A stretch of DNA of 64,000 nucleotides from a virus. The translations under genes and the position numbers were made by a program. Under the pieces are notes generated by a model. That model was not told the DNA's origin and searched no databases. It saw nothing but the letters and a program-made list of their open reading frames with translations. How positions within the stretch are numbered: position 1 is the first letter of the stretch; the number at the start of each line of letters is the position of its first letter. The stretch lies in the IMG/VR virus record IMGVR_UViG_3300030002_000007, positions 17,479 to 81,478 of that record; one strand, written 5' to 3'. This document shows positions 39,728 to 55,077 of the stretch, in pieces.

Positions 39728-40054
39728 ATGGAAGCGCGAAAGCGAAAACCAGCCGAGCCGTACATCTCGCAATTTGAATGCAAGGCGATCGACCTTCTGT
39801 TGAAGTTGGGTCCGTGCATTGGTCGAGTGTTCGCTGTAAAGTATTGGGGTGTAGTCAAGCACAGTAGCAGTAAGTACTCGGACTATGCGCTGAAAGGTGC
39901 TGTAGGTCTGAACCGGATGCGTCGGCATGGCCTAGTATATAGCACTGTTCCGAGCAGCGGGTTTAAGTCCCCAGCGTATCACCTGTGGCACGTAACTGAA
40001 TTGGGTATCCTCTTGCAACACAACTACCTCGCACGATATGGCGAACCAAAATGA
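39728..40054 (+). CDS. hypothetical protein (possible wHTH)
   Basis: LNRMRRHGLV...WHVTELG. Confidence 0.55.
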   Translation: MEARKRKPAEPYISQFECKAIDLLLKLGPCIGRVFAVKYWGVVKHSSSKYSDYALKGAVGLNRMRRHGLVYSTVPSSGFKSPAYHLWHVTELGILLQHNYLARYGEPK

Positions 40055-41970
40055 CGACAACGACAACAAAGAGTGCAGTACCTCGTAAATATGATTCGGA
40101 TAGTATTGAAACACTTCAGTTCCCTCTCAACGTTAGAGCTAATGCGTCGCAGTACATCGGCGGTGTGGACGAGCAAGGTCTGTTCAACGTGTGGCGGGAG
40201 TTGGGAGACAATGCAGTTGATGAAGCATTAGCTGGACGCAACACCGGAGTCCTGTTCTACTTCGACAAGGACGGCAGCTACTGGGTGCAGGATAAGGGTC
40301 ATGGCATCCCGCAAGGCATGAAGACGCAGATCATCAATGTGTCCGGCAAGCCGGTCAAGAGCCAGATGCCAACGATGCAAGCTGTGTTCGGCGCTCTGCA
40401 TACCTCCGGCAAGTATCGCGACGACGCGTACAAAGTGTCGATCGGGTCACACGGCATTGGCGCAAAGGGTACGAATGCGACGGCTGAGTTCTTCGAAGTG
40501 TGGACGAAGTACGAAAATCAGTGGTACAACATCGCATTCAAGAAAGGCCACTTGATCACCGGCGTGCGCAAATGCAACAGACCCAAAGCGCCAGTCGGCA
40601 CGATCACTGAAGGCACGCTGATCCACTACAAGCCGGACAGCACGATCTTCTCAGCCAAGCGCTTCCCAGTATCAATGGCCGTCGAGTGGGCACAGATCAT
40701 GGCCTACATGAACCCCGGCTTCAAGATCATCCTTGCTGCTCATACCGGCAAGACGAAGAGCTTCTACTCCAAGCTGGGTGCAAAGGACTATATCACTGAG
40801 CGTTTGACGGTCATGAAGTGTGATGCAGAGCCCTCCGTGTTCGAGCATCATTCGTCGTTGGCAGACGTCGTAATTGCCTTTTCATCCTACGATGGATCAG
40901 ACCTCCGGGGTTTCACAAACGGCCTCTTCAACATACAGGGCGGGTATCATGTCGACGCTGTGTCGAAAGCCCTGTACCGAGCCATCGAGCCGTACAAGAA
41001 CAAGAAGCACACGTTCACTCGCCGTGAGTTCGATGATGGGCTTCTCGGTATCGTGAATGCGAAGTTGCATAAGGCATCTTTCAGTTCGCAGGACAAGGCA
41101 AAGCTCACGGACACTCGCATGGGTGCCGAGTTCGAGGAAACGTTGTTCGCTGATGCTACTGCGTTCTTCAAGGGCAACAAAGCCTTGGCCCTTCGGCTGT
41201 GCGACAAGGCCAACAAGATCGCTGAATTGCGCACGAAGTTCAAGGCGTCCAAAGCTGTGGTGTCTGCGATCAACGGCATGAGGCGTGGTGGGTTGCCGTC
41301 GAATTACGCACCAGCAGGCCGAGACGTGAAGATCAAGGATCGCGAGTTGTTCATTGTCGAAGGGGAGTCAGCAGCAGGGGGCTTCCGCAAAGTACGCGCA
41401 AGGCACCAAGCATTGCTCCCCATGCGTGGCAAGGTGTTGAACCTCCTGAAGAAGGGGCAGCAAGCCCTAGTGTCAAAGGCGATCATTGCCATCTTGGTGG
41501 CAGTCGGTTATGATGCAAAGGCTGAAGATCCTATCGGCAAGTTCCAGTTCGGACGGATCGTACTCCTTGCAGATGCTGATGCAGACGGCGGTCACATCAA
41601 CAGCCTGTTGCTCACTCTGTTCTACAAGCTGATGCCTGAAGTGTTTGATCGAGGTTTGGTCTATGTGGCAGACATGCCGGAGTTCATGGCTCAGCCGAAG
41701 GGGTTGCTAGTCACAGGCAACTCGAACAGTGAAGTGCAAGCGAAGCTCAAGACGTTGGGATTGAAAGCGCCAGTGAAGCACTTCAAGGGATGGGGTGAAG
41801 TTGATCCACCTGTGCTGAAAATCCTTGCTGTAAATGATTCACGTAAGCTGATCAAGATCCAACCGATCTCCAAAGAGTCGGGGGTTAGGTTTGAGGCCAT
41901 CATGGCGAAGGACGTTGAGGCGAGGCGCGAGGCGCTTGGCATTACCGAGGAAAAGCACCATGCAGAGTAG
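40051..41970 (+). CDS. type IIA topoisomerase ATPase/TOPRIM subunit (GyrB/ParE-like)
   Basis: ELGDNAVDE, D.GHGIP, LHTSGK, GSHGIG, VEGESA, PMRGK, DADADGGHI, FKGWGE. Confidence 0.95.
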   Translation: MTTTTTKSAVPRKYDSDSIETLQFPLNVRANASQYIGGVDEQGLFNVWRELGDNAVDEALAGRNTGVLFYFDKDGSYWVQDKGHGIPQGMKTQIINVSGKPVKSQMPTMQAVFGALHTSGKYRDDAYKVSIGSHGIGAKGTNATAEFFEVWTKYENQWYNIAFKKGHLITGVRKCNRPKAPVGTITEGTLIHYKPDSTIFSAKRFPVSMAVEWAQIMAYMNPGFKIILAAHTGKTKSFYSKLGAKDYITERLTVMKCDAEPSVFEHHSSLADVVIAFSSYDGSDLRGFTNGLFNIQGGYHVDAVSKALYRAIEPYKNKKHTFTRREFDDGLLGIVNAKLHKASFSSQDKAKLTDTRMGAEFEETLFADATAFFKGNKALALRLCDKANKIAELRTKFKASKAVVSAINGMRRGGLPSNYAPAGRDVKIKDRELFIVEGESAAGGFRKVRARHQALLPMRGKVLNLLKKGQQALVSKAIIAILVAVGYDAKAEDPIGKFQFGRIVLLADADADGGHINSLLLTLFYKLMPEVFDRGLVYVADMPEFMAQPKGLLVTGNSNSEVQAKLKTLGLKAPVKHFKGWGEVDPPVLKILAVNDSRKLIKIQPISKESGVRFEAIMAKDVEARREALGITEEKHHAE

Positions 41971-43534
41971 GCCAGCAACACCTACGGTTAAGAAAGCAGT
42001 AACGAAGCGTGCATCACCCAAAGCAAAGGGCTTGGCAACACTGGGTGGTGGCATCGTGCGTGAAGGTTCGATTGACGACTACGCGCAGGAGACAATGAGT
42101 GAGTACGCTGAAGAAGTGAACCTAGCGCGCTCAGTGCCTGATTTGATGGATGGGCTGAAGCCTGTGCAACGACGCATCATGTGGTCAGCGCACAAGATGC
42201 CCGGTTCCGGTTTCCGCAAGACAGCCCGCATAGTTGGTGATTGCATCGGTAAGTATCACCCACACGGTGACGGGTCAGTGGATGGGGCGATCGAGACGTT
42301 GGTGCAGCATCCAACGCCAACGATGCTGGGTAGCGGCAATTGGGGCGGCTTGTTGGATAGCGCGGCAGCAATGCGATACACCAACTGCAAACTGTCCAGT
42401 TACGGCGAGTCCTTCTTCCTTCCTGACTACATCAACAGTTCGGTGACGTCGTTTGTTCCCAACTACGACGGCGAAGACGACGAGCCTGTGAGCTTGCCTT
42501 CAATGCTTCCGAACGTGCTGCTCAATGGTGGTGAAGGTATCGGCGTTGGCGTCACGACGTTGATCCCGACATTCAGCCCCGAGTCGATCATTATCATGCT
42601 GAAGCGCGTGCTTGCTGGCGAGACACTGACTCCAGTCGACTACGCGAAGACCTTGAAGTTCCAGTCGAAGTGGGGTGGGCATGTATTGAACACCAAAGAG
42701 AATAGGGCGGCGTGGTTGCAACTGTTCAAGACCGGATCGGCATCAGTGCAGTTCAAGGCTGCGTTGCACATTGATCGGAACGGCAAGGCGATCGAGATTG
42801 ACGATTGGCCACCCGGCCTCAATCCTGTGGCTTTGGTCGACAAGATCAGACCCAAGGAAATGAAGAACGGCAAGGTACGTGCAGGGCTTGCCGAGGTCGA
42901 TCAGGTGTTCAATCACAACGGGGACACCGGCTTCCGCATCGAAATGAAGAAGGACCGGAACTACACGCAATTCGATGAACTGGTCAAGAAGATCGAACGC
43001 CTGACTACGTCGCGCAAGAGCTTCAAGATCAACGTTACTTATCGGAAAGCGACAGTGGAAGATGGCAAGGTGATCTTCAACACGCGGTTCCTGTCAGTGT
43101 CCATTCCGAAGTTGCTGTCCCTGTGGCTCAAGGAAAGGCTGCAGATCGAAAAGCGCAGTCTCGAGTATCGGCTGAAGAACCAAGCGGCTATGATCGCCTA
43201 CTCGAAGCTCCTGATTTACGCATCGACGAAACTCGAGGTCGTGTTTGCTGCATTGAAGTCTCAGGACTCCAAGGCTTACTTGGTGACGAACCTCAAGCTA
43301 ACACCTGAGCAAGCCGACACGATCCTTGAGTTGCGCGTTCGTCAGTTGTCGAAACTTGACAAGGCTGCAATGGAGTCGAAGCTCAAGGAACAGGTTGCCT
43401 TCGAGGCCCAGCTGCAGAAGTGGTACAAAGCCCCACGGGCCAAGGTGTCTGCTGATATGGACACTTGCCTACTGGCGATCCAGAAGGATCGGACCTATGA
43501 AAACGTGAAGGAAGAAGAGCTCACGATTGCCTAA
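41960..43534 (+). CDS. type IIA topoisomerase breakage-reunion subunit (GyrA/ParC-like, no CTD)
   Basis: DGLKPVQRRI, KYHPHGD, GNWG, AAMRYT, PNYDG, GIGVG. Confidence 0.95.
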   Translation: MQSRPATPTVKKAVTKRASPKAKGLATLGGGIVREGSIDDYAQETMSEYAEEVNLARSVPDLMDGLKPVQRRIMWSAHKMPGSGFRKTARIVGDCIGKYHPHGDGSVDGAIETLVQHPTPTMLGSGNWGGLLDSAAAMRYTNCKLSSYGESFFLPDYINSSVTSFVPNYDGEDDEPVSLPSMLPNVLLNGGEGIGVGVTTLIPTFSPESIIIMLKRVLAGETLTPVDYAKTLKFQSKWGGHVLNTKENRAAWLQLFKTGSASVQFKAALHIDRNGKAIEIDDWPPGLNPVALVDKIRPKEMKNGKVRAGLAEVDQVFNHNGDTGFRIEMKKDRNYTQFDELVKKIERLTTSRKSFKINVTYRKATVEDGKVIFNTRFLSVSIPKLLSLWLKERLQIEKRSLEYRLKNQAAMIAYSKLLIYASTKLEVVFAALKSQDSKAYLVTNLKLTPEQADTILELRVRQLSKLDKAAMESKLKEQVAFEAQLQKWYKAPRAKVSADMDTCLLAIQKDRTYENVKEEELTIA

Positions 43535-43712: not shown

Positions 43713-44036
43713 ATGTTGAAAGAACTCGCTCAAATCACCAAAGGCGTTCGTGTCCTGACCCGTGAAAATGGTTCACTGCAACGCAAGCTGACCGCCGCCG
43801 AAAACAAGATCGCGCGTTTGACGGGCAAAGCCGTTCCGGTCAAGGCCGCGAAAGCCGCCAAAGCGCCGGTCGCCAAAACCGTCAAGGGTAAAGTCGCCAA
43901 GGCAGCGCCGGCGAAGGCAGTCAAGGCAGCGCCGGCAAAAGCCGCCAAGGTCGTCAAGGGTGCCGCCAAGAAGGCAGCTCCGGCGAAAGCAGTCAAGGGC
44001 GGTGGCAAGAAGGCAGCCTCCGAGTTCCTGCTGTAA
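43713..44036 (+). CDS. histone H1-like (AKAAPAK-repeat) DNA-binding protein
   Basis: Coiled coil followed by KAAPAKAVK repeats. Confidence 0.75.
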   Translation: MLKELAQITKGVRVLTRENGSLQRKLTAAENKIARLTGKAVPVKAAKAAKAPVAKTVKGKVAKAAPAKAVKAAPAKAAKVVKGAAKKAAPAKAVKGGGKKAASEFLL

Positions 44037-44069
44037 TCGAAGCTGACGAGCAAGGCTGAAGTTGGAAGG

Positions 44070-44104
44070 AAGGGGAGAAAGCGTAAAGGCTATCTCCCCT
44101 TTCT
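44070..44104 (+). terminator. rho-independent terminator
   Basis: AAGGGGAGA...TCTCCCCTT + T. Confidence 0.65.
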
Positions 44105-44151
44105 CGCATTGTGCATCTGAAGTTCAACATCACTGATCGGGAGTAGCAACC

Positions 44152-44583
44152 ATGAGCAAATCGACGAAATCACCAACCAAGACGAAAAGCACGAAAGCCC
44201 CTGAGGCCAAGCCTGCATCCATCCAAGACAAAGTCAAGGAAGCACGCACTGCAAACCCCTCACTGCATCTTCTATACACTGGCTGGGCAGTCAAGCACAT
44301 CCTGTTACTCAACGACTGCATGGCTAAGCTGGCAGAGACTTCCAATAGCAACCTGCTTGCCGCACAATCTGCACTCGCTAACGCACGCGAGGATCTGATC
44401 CAGACCGATCCTGCATTCTTTGAAGCAGACGCCATCCTCGCTGGCATACAAGAGTATCTGCCGAAGCGATTGCGCTATGATCGTGAGCGGGGCACTGGTC
44501 GCCTAGTCGACACAGAGGGCAGCAAGATCGATCTTGCGACTCTGCAACCCATAGCGAGTAGTGACGCCGGGTTCGACGAGTAA
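44152..44583 (+). CDS. hypothetical protein
   Basis: RBS GGGAG. Confidence 0.65.
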   Translation: MSKSTKSPTKTKSTKAPEAKPASIQDKVKEARTANPSLHLLYTGWAVKHILLLNDCMAKLAETSNSNLLAAQSALANAREDLIQTDPAFFEADAILAGIQEYLPKRLRYDRERGTGRLVDTEGSKIDLATLQPIASSDAGFDE

Positions 44584-44660
44584 CTGATTGCAACACGGCT
44601 GGTCAGTACGCCGGTATCTGACCCACCGAACTTATCCGGCACTATAGGAGTAACAGTATC

Positions 44661-44990
44661 ATGAATGCATCTGATGAAAAATCCGTCGTTGCTTTTTTCC
44701 GCGAACTGCTCGAAGAGGGGCATAGCAATACCCCAGTCGTAGCCTTCGACTCTTCCCACATTACCGGGAAGGTTCGGAACACTCGACGCAATCGCGCGAT
44801 GGAAGACATCAATGACATCTTGTCAGGTTCAGACACTTGCGTCGAGCTAGGCGGCATTTACACCGTCTGCGAATACGAAAGCAACGTCTGGTTCTTGATT
44901 AAGGCGGAGTTGGCCACGTCTGCGACGAGTCTGTTCGATCCCGCGAAAAAGACGATAGCCGCAGCTCTCTGCGAAGAAGACGACGAGTAA
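44661..44990 (+). CDS. hypothetical protein
   Basis: RBS AGGAG. Confidence 0.65.
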   Translation: MNASDEKSVVAFFRELLEEGHSNTPVVAFDSSHITGKVRNTRRNRAMEDINDILSGSDTCVELGGIYTVCEYESNVWFLIKAELATSATSLFDPAKKTIAAALCEEDDE

Positions 44991-45079
44991 CTGATGTAGT
45001 GTAGCAAAGAGAGGGAGCTCCGACAGTGACGTCTCCCTCTCGTCGAATTTCATACATTCACCAACCGAGACGTGTTAGT

Positions 45080-45229
45080 GGAGGTGCAGCCATAGGTGTG
45101 ACCACAACGGAGGCGTAGCCGCGAGTCTACGTAAGGCAGGACGGATTGGGAAAGCAGCGTTCACGTTGCGCACCCCCTAGCGGAGCCGTTGCATCTTGCC
45201 GAGTGCTGGTTCGAATCCAGCCACCTCCA
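45080..45229 (+). ncRNA. 150-nt tRNA-like RNA with expanded D and anticodon regions
   Basis: Acceptor GGAGGTG/CACCTCC-A (pairing extends to 14 bp); canonical T arm GCTGG-TTCGAAT-CCAGC. Confidence 0.75.
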
Positions 45230-45258
45230 CTAACATTTTTCCAGAAGGAGAGCACAGC

Positions 45259-46221
45259 ATGTCTGATACAAAATCTGCAGTCGAACAACGCATTGTCAAA
45301 CTCGATCGACTCGTCGCACGGACCAAGGCGATCGCACTGGGGTTGGCTGATCTGTACGTGTGTAACAAGCCCAACCGTCTCAAATCGCTAACGGCGGCGA
45401 TGAAGACTGTCGACGCCCTGCGTGCTGAAAAGGTAGTCGGGACCCGCCTCGTGATCGATACGTGCATGAATGAGCTGACCAGTTTGCGCGAAGGCATCTT
45501 CACAGGTGCTGCCCTCGACAAATCTGACCTCCAGATTCAAACGTGTGCTGCAGCCGTTGGGAAGTTCCAAGAGCTTATGGCATCTGCCCGTCGCCGGCTG
45601 GACAGCATGAAGCGCGACAATGCCGAAGAGCAAGGCATCGAAGTCGAGGCTGACGTTGATTACTCGGAACTGGCAATCATCAAGAACCTGAAAGAGAAAG
45701 CGAAGCTGCCAGAGATCAAGGGCAAGGCCTTCGTCGTCGGTCGGGCGCCTGTGGTCATCGTCACTACGCCGGGTGGTGGTTCGTCCTCTGGTGTTCCGGG
45801 TGCGAAGAAGGTCACCTTCCAGCAAAAGGACAACCCATCGAACTTCGTCAACCGCACCGTTCTGGAGAAGGGTGGCTTCAGCGTCGACAACATCGACGGC
45901 TATGCGATCATTCACGACCAGTTAGTGATTGGCGTCAACAAGTCGATGATCGAACTCGACAAGCGTGGCCGTCCGGCGGAGACGATTCAGGAAGTGGCGC
46001 AGCGGGTCATGACTTCATTGTCCAAGGCCTCCAAGAAGCAAATGACGCTGGTCACTGACGGCGTGTATGGCTACGGCGGCGGCTCGTGGTTCTGGATCAT
46101 GCCTGAGAAAGAGATGAGCCTCTTCTCAAAAGCGTTCCCCGGTGGTCACCCCAAGTTGAAGGTTTGGGGGTTGGCCTTTGCGAATCACTCACAGACCATG
46201 GTTCGTCGCACCAAGGTCTAA
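45259..46221 (+). CDS. hypothetical protein
   Basis: RBS AAGGAG, strong codon bias. Confidence 0.75.
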   Translation: MSDTKSAVEQRIVKLDRLVARTKAIALGLADLYVCNKPNRLKSLTAAMKTVDALRAEKVVGTRLVIDTCMNELTSLREGIFTGAALDKSDLQIQTCAAAVGKFQELMASARRRLDSMKRDNAEEQGIEVEADVDYSELAIIKNLKEKAKLPEIKGKAFVVGRAPVVIVTTPGGGSSSGVPGAKKVTFQQKDNPSNFVNRTVLEKGGFSVDNIDGYAIIHDQLVIGVNKSMIELDKRGRPAETIQEVAQRVMTSLSKASKKQMTLVTDGVYGYGGGSWFWIMPEKEMSLFSKAFPGGHPKLKVWGLAFANHSQTMVRRTKV

Positions 46222-46231
46222 GGAGACATCT

Positions 46232-46822
46232 ATGAAGCTCAAGGCCGTGGAAAGGTTGACAGCTGTACCTCAGCTAATCTCGTTGAACGACGTCGAGGTC
46301 AAGGACGCCATACTTGACTGCAAGAAGAACTTCGATGCGGCTAAAGATGTAGAATCGATCGGCTCAGGTGCAAAGCTGTTTCAGTTGGACACACCTAGTG
46401 GTGGATACTTCTTCGTTATGGAAACTTCCTCCCGTGAGATTCACTACTTGGTGCGCTACAAGCAAGTGGAGCTTAGTTCCAAGCTTAATCTTCCATCTGG
46501 AAGTTCCGCCTGCCGTCAAGTCTTAGTATGGCGCACTACGAATAGTGGCTACGCGACGGGCGTTGCTGCAAAAGTGTTCTGGAAGTACCTCTTCCACCAA
46601 TATAAGGTTTTGGTGTCGGACTCACAGCAATCAGAAAAGGGTAAAGCCTTTTGGCAGTATCAAGTTCAGAAGGCGTTCGAGACAGAGCATACCGTTCGGC
46701 TGGTAAACACCAACGACTGGAGCTTCATTGAGCTTTCTTCTGAAGCCGAGCTCAATGAGCTTGCGCCCAAAGTGTGGGGTTTGCCCGATTGGTTTCGTCG
46801 CATGGTCATCGTCATCTATTGA
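46232..46822 (+). CDS. GNAT-like fold hypothetical protein
   Basis: GYATGVAAKVFW...LVSDSQQSEKGKAFW. Confidence 0.5.
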   Translation: MKLKAVERLTAVPQLISLNDVEVKDAILDCKKNFDAAKDVESIGSGAKLFQLDTPSGGYFFVMETSSREIHYLVRYKQVELSSKLNLPSGSSACRQVLVWRTTNSGYATGVAAKVFWKYLFHQYKVLVSDSQQSEKGKAFWQYQVQKAFETEHTVRLVNTNDWSFIELSSEAELNELAPKVWGLPDWFRRMVIVIY

Positions 46823-46833
46823 AAGGGATCAAC

Positions 46834-47268
46834 ATGAACAAGTACGTGCTATACGCTTTGCTTGAGCCGGACAGCCTTGCCCATCTCAAGTCTCTGATCC
46901 AGCAATCGCCCATCTCGATGCTGGACATTCCCGCGTTGTACATTGGCTACTCGGTGATGCCACTTAAGGTCGACGAGCACGCGAAGTACTCGGCAATGCC
47001 CACGACGTTCTCGCTGCAAAAGAATCCGGTGACAGGTAACACTTCGCTAGTCCTCGGTTTGACATTGACAGACGACACGCTCGAAGATCGGTTCATGGCG
47101 TTGGATTCTCCTGAGGTCGGAGAGCCCCTCGATCCCTGCATCATTATGAGTGACATGGTGCATGCCATCCCCCGCAACTACCGGGCGTACCTCAACTCGA
47201 TCGAAGAGACGTTTGCGCGTGAGCAGTTCGAGTATGAGTTTCATGCCGAGTTCGTCGTCGAGCAATAG
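46834..47268 (+). CDS. hypothetical protein, possible degenerate 2H-phosphoesterase fold
   Basis: Spacing like 57B/Acb1 proteins but no HxT motifs. Confidence 0.45.
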   Translation: MNKYVLYALLEPDSLAHLKSLIQQSPISMLDIPALYIGYSVMPLKVDEHAKYSAMPTTFSLQKNPVTGNTSLVLGLTLTDDTLEDRFMALDSPEVGEPLDPCIIMSDMVHAIPRNYRAYLNSIEETFAREQFEYEFHAEFVVEQ

Positions 47269-55000: not shown

Positions 55001-55077
55001 GGCCCCATAGCTTAGTGGTTAGAGCGGCGAGGTGAAAATAGTACTCGTAGACGGAGGTTCGATTCCTCTTGGGGCCG
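55001..55077 (+). tRNA. tRNA-like gene with a 12-nt anticodon loop (Phe-GAA-like or non-decoding)
   Basis: GGCCCCA/TGGGGCC acceptor; D arm GCTT-AGTGGTTA-GAGC; AC stem GCGAG/CTCGT; T arm GGAGG-TTCGATT-CCTCT; no encoded CCA. Confidence 0.75.

What the first reader, a model, noticed from the sequence alone, without database searches (positions are those of the whole stretch)
45073..45235. 150-nt oversized tRNA mimic
Seen: canonical acceptor stem (extends to 14 perfect bp) and T arm. The D stem (GCC/GGC) encloses ~40 nt with a hairpin. The anticodon stem (GACGG/CCGTT) encloses ~40 nt with hairpin GCAGCG-TTCA-CGTTGC. There is no 7-nt anticodon loop and no encoded CCA, and it is too short for a group I intron. 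Inference: a non-decoding tRNA mimic that RNase P could process, possibly a decoy for tRNA-targeting defences.
Basis: partly seen in the sequence, partly recalled or inferred. Interest (0 to 1): 0.7.

Follow-up and report, generated by a model that had tools for sequence, protein, structure and literature searches.

The report
Oversized tyrosine-tRNA look-alike in phage
A giant phage from peat carries a 150-base RNA gene built on the frame of a bacterial tyrosine tRNA but with no usable anticodon or CCA end, so it most likely imitates that tRNA rather than reading codons.

Summary
At 45073-45235 (+) a 14-bp perfect helix (plus one G-U) closes onto a canonical T arm, in a 268-nt gap between two genes of a peat jumbo phage. 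It is far beyond chance. Standard detectors do not call it a tRNA: ARAGORN finds none and Rfam tRNA scores 25.6 bits against a cut-off of 29.

New here: the frame is that of bacterial class II tRNA-Tyr. Its last 22 bases match only tRNA-Tyr(GTA) genes (3 of 3 exact hits in 185,579 species genomes, two of them Acidobacteriota). The 5' strand with A3, the 3-bp D stem, A26 and a 14-nt variable region also fit. The D loop is 43 nt instead of 11, and the anticodon loop is 41 nt instead of 7. There is no GUA. CCA has become CUA and is paired with the leader.

I found no homologue, no expression data and no splicing solution. Distantly related jumbo phages carry other oversized tRNA-derived genes.

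Best reading: a non-decoding tRNA-Tyr mimic, possibly a decoy for tRNA-Tyr-cleaving defences of the Septu/retron type. That function is inferred only.

This scan has noted similar oversized tRNA-like RNAs on other phage DNA before. The closest known analogue is T4 species 1 RNA, but by architecture only, not by detectable homology.

The parts
45009..45041 (+). Terminator-like hairpin (9-bp stem, 15-nt loop) after the upstream ORF. It corresponds by position, and by the following TCGTCG..TTT tail, to the hairpin that precedes the homologous downstream gene in related phages.
   Evidence: Read. Compared by eye with the upstream regions of 13 related loci printed. Not called by the terminator scan.
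45073..45079 (+). 5' leader strand that pairs with the discriminator and 3' trailer (45229-45235), extending the acceptor helix to 14 Watson-Crick pairs.
45080..45086 (+). Acceptor stem 5' strand (GGAGGUG, with A at position 3), identical to that of the Acidobacteriota tRNA-Tyr genes.
   Evidence: Alignment A4.
45089..45137 (+). D arm in the tRNA-Tyr frame: a 3-bp stem (45089-45091 / 45135-45137) around a 43-nt loop. The loop starts like a tRNA-Tyr D loop, with GG at 45095-45096. It then holds an internal near-copy of the gene's first 12 nt (45109-45120) and a hairpin with a GCGA tetraloop (45113-45132).
   Evidence: The 12-mer repeat has 2 mismatches; 248 of 20000 shuffles do as well. The Rfam tRNA model uses 45109 as its 5' end.
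45140..45190 (+). Anticodon-arm equivalent: a 5-bp stem (45140-45144 / 45186-45190) around 41 nt instead of 7. It contains a 3-bp helix and a 6-bp hairpin with a UUCA loop (45154-45169). There is no GUA triplet. The loop starts A-U-UGG-G-A.
45191..45204 (+). Variable region of 14 nt, within a base of the variable arms of the matching tRNA-Tyr genes (13 to 15 nt). In the MFE fold part of it (45194-45200) pairs with 45135-45141 instead.
45205..45221 (+). Canonical T arm (5-bp stem, loop UUCGAAU).
45222..45235 (+). Acceptor 3' strand (45222-45228), discriminator A45229, CUA in place of CCA (45230-45232), and trailer paired to the leader. A run of five T follows at 45236-45240.
45259..46221 (+). 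Downstream gene (320 aa, no family assignment) with a Shine-Dalgarno sequence at 45246-45250, 24 nt after the element. In related phages its homologues lack the element.
44661..44990 (+). Upstream ORF (109 aa, no family, two homologues at 49-52% identity). Together with ORF 44152-44583 and the RNA it is extra relative to the related phages examined.

Best explanation
The element is a gene for a tRNA-shaped RNA derived from a bacterial class II tRNA-Tyr. It keeps the parts that give that tRNA its outer shape. These are the acceptor stem with A73, the 3-bp D stem with the GG of the D loop, a 5-bp anticodon stem, a 14-nt variable region and a perfect T arm. It has lost everything needed for decoding. 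The anticodon loop is replaced by 41 structured nucleotides, the D loop is swollen to 43 nt, and the CCA end is mutated to CUA and locked into a 14-bp helix with the leader. Shown: the anatomy, the tRNA-Tyr frame, the absence of a restorable anticodon loop, and that the element is an insertion specific to this phage lineage. Inferred: it is transcribed either by read-through or from an unidentified phage promoter. Also inferred is that it acts by mimicry, occupying a protein that recognises tRNA-Tyr by shape. The most likely target is a host defence nuclease that cleaves tRNA-Tyr (Septu or retron-Eco7 PtuAB type), so that the host's real tRNA-Tyr is spared during infection.
For: The 22-nt 3' end has 3 exact matches in one genome each of 185,579 species, and all 3 lie in tRNA-Tyr(GTA) genes. 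The 5' strand with A3, the GCC...GGC-A D stem and the 14-nt variable region match those genes (A4). I examined 33 loci, 30 from 151 sampled Acidobacteriota genomes plus the 3 exact-match loci. The same 3' strand sits in 8 tRNA-Ala (G3, 4-bp D stem), 5 tRNA-Tyr (A3, 3-bp D stem) and 20 places without a tRNA call. Only the Tyr type fits the element. The helices are intact while the loops are expanded by structured inserts. Seven extra leader-trailer pairs exist, which is not the pattern of random decay. Free folding gives z = -2.81. No decoding route was found. Distantly related jumbo phages carry other oversized tRNA-derived genes. Most of these lack CCA, whereas 28 of 29 ordinary tRNAs in these records encode it. 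tRNA-Tyr is a documented target of antiphage nucleases, and phage tRNA-Tyr is a documented counter-measure, discussed as 'a decoy or supplement' (PMC13096335, abstract and passages; PMC11555353, listing only).
Against: There is a single sequence only. No homologue was found in IMG/VR, in the phage records, or in 13 related jumbo-phage records, so there is no covariation and no proof of selection. No evidence of transcription was obtained. The formal models do not recognise it: Rfam tRNA scores 25.6 bits against a cut-off of 29. A model I built from 5 bacterial tRNA-Tyr genes gives only 13.0 bits (E 0.31), in a wrong register and below the 17.5 bits of the unrelated tRNA at 55001. The Tyr assignment therefore rests on the ends and the layout. 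The variable-region sequence differs from that of the bacterial tRNA-Tyr genes and may pair elsewhere. No host, no defence system and no binding partner is known. The contig is only 34% of the estimated genome.
Confidence: 0.4

Rival explanations
1. Cis-acting leader of the downstream gene. The tRNA-shaped fold stays in the mRNA 24 nt before the start codon. There it could serve as a processing site (RNase III on the long helix, RNase P or RNase Z at the tRNA-like end), as a 5' stabiliser, or as an attenuator formed by the helix plus the run of T.
For: The element ends 24 nt before the start codon, with a Shine-Dalgarno sequence in between. The helix is followed by A plus five T. A second internal 5' strand (45109-45115) offers an alternative pairing. 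RNase P is known to cleave non-tRNA substrates, including mRNAs (PMC11143913, passages).
Against: Homologues of the downstream gene lack any such element in 44 related loci and sit directly behind a terminator hairpin (13 loci read). The terminator scan does not call it. The alternative fold is 13.4 kcal/mol less stable (-57.7 against -71.1), which is a poor switch. A leader has no need to copy the tRNA-Tyr frame in such detail.
Confidence: 0.2
2. A decaying relic with no function: a tRNA-Tyr gene, captured from a host or inherited, that was disrupted by a partial duplication and insertions.
For: No homologue was found. It falls below the tRNA model's cut-off. It contains an internal near-copy of the first 12 nt. 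It lies in a lineage-specific insert together with two ORFs of unknown function.
Against: All four helices of the frame are intact and the acceptor and T arms are perfect. The inserts are themselves well-formed hairpins. Seven further leader-trailer pairs have arisen, about 6e-5 by chance for seven set positions (my arithmetic). Free folding gives z = -2.81. Oversized tRNA-derived genes recur in related phages.
Confidence: 0.2
3. An interrupted tRNA gene. The inserts in the D loop and the anticodon loop would be introns, removed to give a working tRNA, as proposed for the 'enigmatic introns' of Lak megaphage tRNAs.
For: Large phages are reported to carry tRNA genes with short unexplained inserts (preprint 10.1101/356790, passages). 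Relatives here have otherwise canonical tRNAs with 41-56 extra nt in the anticodon region. RtcB ligase is present in 5 of 14 records. The 41-nt loop begins with a U33-NNN-purine pattern.
Against: Two separate inserts would have to be removed. No GUA is present. ARAGORN's intron mode gives only a shifted model with a mismatched acceptor. Of 6855 single deletions none gives a unique tRNA. No bulge-helix-bulge can be drawn, as I judged by eye. The splicing endonuclease family is found in 0 of 14 records. No group I intron match appears in Rfam. No RtcB is found in the 81-kb record, which is incomplete. The 3' end is CUA and paired.
Confidence: 0.07
4. A tRNA-like module of another known RNA class: a miniature tmRNA, a Y RNA (YrlA-type partner of Ro) or an HDV-like ribozyme unit.
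For: The 3' strand equals the common tmRNA/tRNA-Ala 3' strand. Weak Rfam matches exist to permuted tmRNA (18.2 bits, cut-off 47) and to the CPEB3 ribozyme (14.8 bits, cut-off 35). A short frame starting with GCA and ending in UAG lies in the 41-nt region (my reading).
Against: Position 3 is A-U, not the G-U needed for alanine charging. ARAGORN's tmRNA mode finds nothing. The element is less than half the size of known tmRNAs (recalled). No Y RNA family matched at E up to 10, and TROVE/Ro is found in 0 of 14 records. The ribozyme match uses the T loop as its catalytic strand and has no P2 partner, as I judged from the alignment.
Confidence: 0.05

Closest known systems
Bacterial class II tRNA-Tyr(GUA), as in Acidobacteriota MAGs (loci L192, L193, L222, L223)
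   Same: The acceptor stem is the same in four of the five matching genes and A73 in all five. The T loop and the 3' T-stem strand are identical in three of them. Also shared are the 3-bp D stem followed by A26, GG early in the D loop, a 5-bp anticodon stem and a variable region within a base of theirs, 14 nt against 13 to 15.
   Different: The D loop is 43 nt against 11, and the anticodon loop 41 nt against 7, without GUA. CCA is replaced by CUA and paired with the leader. The variable-region sequence is unrelated. It scores below the cut-off on the tRNA model and poorly on a tRNA-Tyr model.
Phage T4 species 1 RNA (rnaC, 139 nt; AF158101 70908-71046), a stable RNA of unknown function in the T4 tRNA cluster
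   Same: It is a phage-encoded RNA of about 140-150 nt, with an acceptor-like stem and a canonical T arm framing two large structured arms and no anticodon loop. The structure of the rnaC family is supported by covariation: 19 of 46 pairs in 5 sequences.
   Different: There is no detectable homology. The rnaC covariance model matches only the 17-nt T arm (8.6 bits, E 1.2). rnaC sits inside a tRNA operon, whereas this element stands alone before a protein gene. The rnaC acceptor has two U-U mismatches, while this one is perfect and extended. That rnaC is stable, processed and of unknown function is recalled from the older literature and the GenBank note, not read here.
'Enigmatic' short inserts in tRNA genes of Lak megaphages and other huge phages (preprint 10.1101/356790)
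   Same: These are oversized tRNA genes in very large phage genomes that bacterial tRNA finders miss, with inserts too short for group I introns (passages read).
   Different: The Lak cases are described as otherwise normal tRNAs with an assignable anticodon and a single insert. Here there are two inserts, no anticodon and a blocked 3' end.
Phage-encoded tRNA-Tyr as a counter to Septu and retron-Eco7 (PMC13096335; PMC11555353)
   Same: A phage supplies an RNA with a tRNA-Tyr body. [quoted passage not shown]
   Different: Those are complete, decoding tRNAs, whereas this RNA cannot decode. Neither a defence system nor a host is known for this phage.

Membership tests
tRNA (Rfam RF00005 / ARAGORN) | Score at or above the family's gathering cut-off, or a call by a tRNA finder | tested here: not met
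   25.6 bits against a cut-off of 29, found only in the permissive search. No match at gathering thresholds. ARAGORN default makes no call.
tRNA (Rfam RF00005 / ARAGORN) | 7-bp acceptor stem, and a T arm with a 7-nt T loop of the usual sequence | tested here: met
tRNA (Rfam RF00005 / ARAGORN) | 7-nt anticodon loop with U33 and a purine at 37 | tested here: not met
   41 nt lie between the strands of the anticodon stem. No single deletion restores a unique loop.
Bacterial class II tRNA-Tyr | G1-C72, A73 and an acceptor stem of the Tyr type | tested here: met
   The stem is identical to four tRNA-Tyr genes of Acidobacteriota MAGs.
Bacterial class II tRNA-Tyr | 3-bp D stem and a long variable arm | tested here: inconclusive
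   The stem letters and the 14-nt length fit. However, the MFE fold uses the 3' D strand and part of the variable region for another 7-bp helix.
Bacterial class II tRNA-Tyr | GUA anticodon | tested here: not met
   No GUA in 45145-45185.
Bacterial class II tRNA-Tyr | Match to a covariance model of the family | tested here: not met
   My model R3 (5 genes) gives 13.0 bits, E 0.31, in a wrong register.
Bacterial class II tRNA-Tyr | Charging by TyrRS | not testable with these tools
   Needs an aminoacylation assay.
T4 species 1 RNA (rnaC) family | Match to a covariance model built from rnaC of 5 T4-like phages | tested here: not met
   Only the T arm matches, at 8.6 bits, E 1.2.
tmRNA | G3-U70 pair, tag reading frame, and detection by ARAGORN or Rfam | tested here: not met
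   Position 3 is A3-U70. ARAGORN's tmRNA mode finds none. Permuted tmRNA scores 18.2 bits against a cut-off of 47, over the T arm and 3' strand only.
Y RNA / YrlA with Ro (Rsr) | Rfam match and a TROVE-domain protein in the genome | tested here: not met
   No Y RNA family among the matches at E up to 10. PF05731 is found in 0 of 14 records; the own record is only 34% complete.
Intron-bearing tRNA (archaeal/eukaryal type or group I) | A single insert at 37/38 with a bulge-helix-bulge, or a group I intron fold; a splicing endonuclease is available | tested here: not met
   There are two inserts and no group I match. PF01974 is found in 0 of 14 records. The bulge-helix-bulge was judged by eye only.
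HDV-like (CPEB3/theta-type) ribozyme | Nested double pseudoknot with P1, P2, P3 and a catalytic C | tested here: not met
   14.8 bits against a cut-off of 35. Three of six P1 pairs are missing and no P2 partner exists (alignment).

The most novel reading that the evidence does not exclude
The RNA is a dedicated anti-defence decoy. It is a tRNA-Tyr dummy that cannot enter translation and is made by the phage to soak up or jam a tRNA-Tyr-cleaving immune nuclease of the Septu/retron PtuAB kind in its probably acidobacterial host. It would be one example of a wider habit of jumbo phages, which turn class II tRNA genes (Tyr, Leu, Ser-like) into non-decoding mimics.
Probability: 0.22. Interest if true: 0.8.

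Novelty: new variant of a known kind. Interest (0 to 1): 0.55.

Why it matters
Phage-encoded tRNA-shaped RNAs that cannot decode have been known since T4 species 1 RNA, and no function has been assigned to them. This one can be traced to a specific parent, tRNA-Tyr. That parent is the tRNA that two recently described antiphage systems destroy. The vague 'mimic' idea therefore becomes a direct experiment: does the RNA protect tRNA-Tyr, or the phage, from such nucleases? The finding also shows that genome annotation misses a class of RNA genes in large environmental phages. Neither ARAGORN nor Rfam at its cut-offs reports this element.

Tried and rejected
Homologue searches all failed for the element itself.
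- blastn of 44000-47000 against 50,697 phage records gave no match.
- The exact 22-nt 3' end gave no match in IMG/VR.
- Close relatives were sought through the downstream protein, topoisomerase II and the upstream 109-aa ORF, and none was found.
- The covariance model R2 of the element found nothing in 13 related records except a 20-nt T-arm-like hit at E 0.74.
- Closer relatives do exist as proteins (P0002-P0006 at 39-49% identity; P0025 and P0026 at 49-52%).

Expression: I laid two RNA runs and two DNA runs. The RNA contigs cover 44611-45001 only, which is the upstream ORF. Nothing lay on the element. The runs are contigs from ordinary libraries, so this says nothing about a small structured RNA.

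Splicing: ARAGORN's intron mode gave only a shifted tRNA-Ala model with a mismatched acceptor and a 68-nt 'intron'. The deletion scan gave 329 calls from 6855 variants. Of these, 291 used a wrong 5' end at 45068. The 37 with correct ends carried the anticodons CUA, GCA, GGA or GGC. The CUA solutions raised a suppressor reading. I rejected it because position 33 would be C and because TAG is used as a stop (11 of 54 long ORFs).

Other readings tested and dropped: T4 rnaC homology, tmRNA, Y RNA with Ro, HDV-like ribozyme, and a sigma-70 promoter or simple terminator next to the element (none).

The tRNA-Tyr covariance model did not support the Tyr assignment. I keep that assignment on the evidence of the ends and the layout only.

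The literature search for a phage tRNA-like decoy against anticodon nucleases (29 papers, 15 listed) showed no paper describing a non-decoding tRNA mimic as a decoy. This covers only the held library.

Full report
**Where it lies.** The window is bases 17479-81478 of an 81,478-base IMG/VR virus record that CheckV rates 34% complete. The DNA occurs in many peat metagenome runs. The neighbouring genes are phage genes, for example both subunits of a T4-type topoisomerase II at 40051-43534. The element lies in a 268-nt gap between a 109-aa ORF (44661-44990) and a 320-aa ORF (45259-46221). Neither has a Pfam or PHROG family.

**The observation.**
- a 14-bp perfect helix (45073-45086 with 45222-45235) plus a G-U;
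- a canonical T arm (45205-45221);
- a 3-bp stem enclosing 43 nt;
- a 5-bp stem enclosing 41 nt, with a 6-bp hairpin inside;
- no 7-nt anticodon loop and no CCA.

Free folding recovers the long helix and the T arm, with MFE -67.7 kcal/mol, z = -2.81 and 0 of 200 shuffles as stable.

ARAGORN and Rfam at curated thresholds report nothing here. The permissive Rfam search gives tRNA at 25.6 bits (cut-off 29). That alignment starts at an internal second copy of the 5' strand, at 45109. The first 12 nt of the gene recur there with 2 mismatches, and 248 of 20000 shuffles do as well. In the precursor, pairing by the outer strand is favoured by 13.4 kcal/mol.

**Parentage.** The last 22 nt (T loop to discriminator) have three exact matches in one genome each of 185,579 species. 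All three lie in tRNA-Tyr(GTA) genes: two in Acidobacteriota MAGs and one in a Burkholderiales MAG.

Aligned to these genes, the element shares:
- the 5' acceptor strand with A at position 3;
- the GCC...GGC D stem followed by A;
- GG early in the D loop;
- a 14-nt variable region;
- a 3' tail one substitution away from CCA.

I then sampled 151 Acidobacteriota genomes and examined 33 loci (30 from the sample plus the three above). The same 3' strand occurs in 8 tRNA-Ala, 5 tRNA-Tyr and 20 places without a tRNA call. The tRNA-Ala genes have G3 and a 4-bp D stem. The tRNA-Tyr genes have A3 and a 3-bp D stem, as the element does.

Against this, a covariance model made from the five tRNA-Tyr genes scores the element at only 13.0 bits, in a wrong register. 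The assignment therefore rests on the ends and the layout, not on a model score.

**Not a decoding tRNA.** The 41-nt region has no GUA. ARAGORN with introns gives only a shifted, mismatched model. Of 6855 single deletions, 37 gave a call with correct ends, and those carried four different anticodons. The splicing endonuclease family is absent from 14 records and RtcB is present in 5 of them. All three stop codons are in use. The mutated CCA and the discriminator are paired with the leader.

**Comparison with relatives.** The downstream protein has 22 homologues, and I fetched 13 viral and 31 metagenome loci. None of the 44 holds a T-loop motif. In the 13 viral loci the homologue directly follows a lysine/alanine-rich gene and a terminator hairpin. 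The window has the same gene (43713-44036) and the same kind of hairpin (45009-41). It has two extra ORFs before the hairpin and the RNA after it. The element's own model finds nothing in the 13 related records.

These phages do carry other oversized tRNA-derived genes:
- G013 has a 113-nt tRNA that is canonical apart from about 41 extra nt in the anticodon region.
- G005 has a 125-nt one.
- G010 has a 149-nt gene whose D arm is identical to that of a phage tRNA-Leu, and a 158-nt class II-like gene inside its tRNA cluster.

A scan for a T arm plus a 7-bp acceptor at 95-240 nt gave 14 candidates in 12 records, against 2-6 in shuffles. Ordinary tRNAs in these records encode CCA in 28 of 29 cases. 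The window element, G010-158 and both G013 genes do not.

**Known classes.** T4 species 1 RNA has the same plan, and I confirmed its fold by covariation. Its model matches only the T arm here. The tmRNA, Y RNA/Ro and HDV-like readings each fail a defining feature. Lak megaphages were reported to have tRNAs with 'enigmatic introns' (preprint 10.1101/356790, passages).

[quoted passage not shown] Phages answer with their own tRNA-Tyr, which the authors discuss as 'a decoy or supplement' (PMC13096335, abstract and passages; PMC11555353 and its preprint, listing only). A tRNA-Tyr body that cannot decode fits a pure decoy. That step is inference. The rivals are a cis-acting leader or processing signal, a relic, and an interrupted tRNA.

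**Earlier notes of this scan.** One search lists several oversized tRNA-like RNAs in other phages, including one built on a tRNA-Tyr body. They are leads, not support.

Noticed in passing
window 55001-55077; L062:1274-1351 (- strand; G013:203884-203961); G010:124531-124679: An expanded 12-nt anticodon loop recurs in three phages of this clade. The window tRNA (57.1 bits) has a normal-looking 7-nt start (U33, GAA, A37) plus 5 extra nt. A G013 tRNA has a near-identical loop motif (UGAAA..UAGUA). The Leu-like G010 gene can also be drawn with a 12-nt loop. Conservation across phages that share only about 30% protein identity suggests the extra 5 nt are kept on purpose.
   Followed up: partly
G010:C1:124531-124679 (+) and G010:C1:90940-91097 (-): Two oversized class II-type tRNA-derived genes in a complete 245-kb relative. 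The first is 149 nt, with a D arm identical to a phage tRNA-Leu, an encoded CCA and a roughly 75-nt arm before the T arm. It lies about 4 kb downstream of the homologue of the window's 320-aa gene. The second is 158 nt, lies inside the tRNA cluster, lacks CCA and has a 10-bp closed end helix.
   Followed up: partly
L062:1364-1487 (- strand; about G013:203974-204097) and L073:1495-1619 (- strand; G005:30009-30133): Two further tRNA-shaped genes of about 124-125 nt in tRNA clusters of relatives. The G013 one was seen by eye only (acceptor-like ends plus a GGUUCGAAUCC T arm) and was missed by both the Rfam tRNA model and my model. The G005 one scores 23.1 bits, with 56 nt in the anticodon loop that form an 8-bp hairpin overlapping the anticodon position.
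   Followed up: no
window 44152-44990: Two ORFs (143 and 109 aa) without any family lie between the lysine/alanine-rich gene and its terminator hairpin, where the 13 related viral loci read have nothing. Contigs from two metatranscriptome runs cover the 109-aa ORF (44611-45001).
   Followed up: partly
G010:C1:114281-116761: The topoisomerase II large-subunit match in this relative is split into two tblastn pieces with a gap of about 540 nt (115834-116375). This could be an intron, an intein or a homing-endonuclease insert.
   Followed up: no
L205-L211 and others (Acidobacteriota genomes): The string TTCGACTCCCACCACCTCCA recurs in at least 8 sampled Acidobacteriota genomes without a tRNA call. 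It is probably the 3' end of their tmRNA genes. This shows that tRNA-Ala, tmRNA and tRNA-Tyr share the same 3' acceptor strand in this phylum.
   Followed up: no
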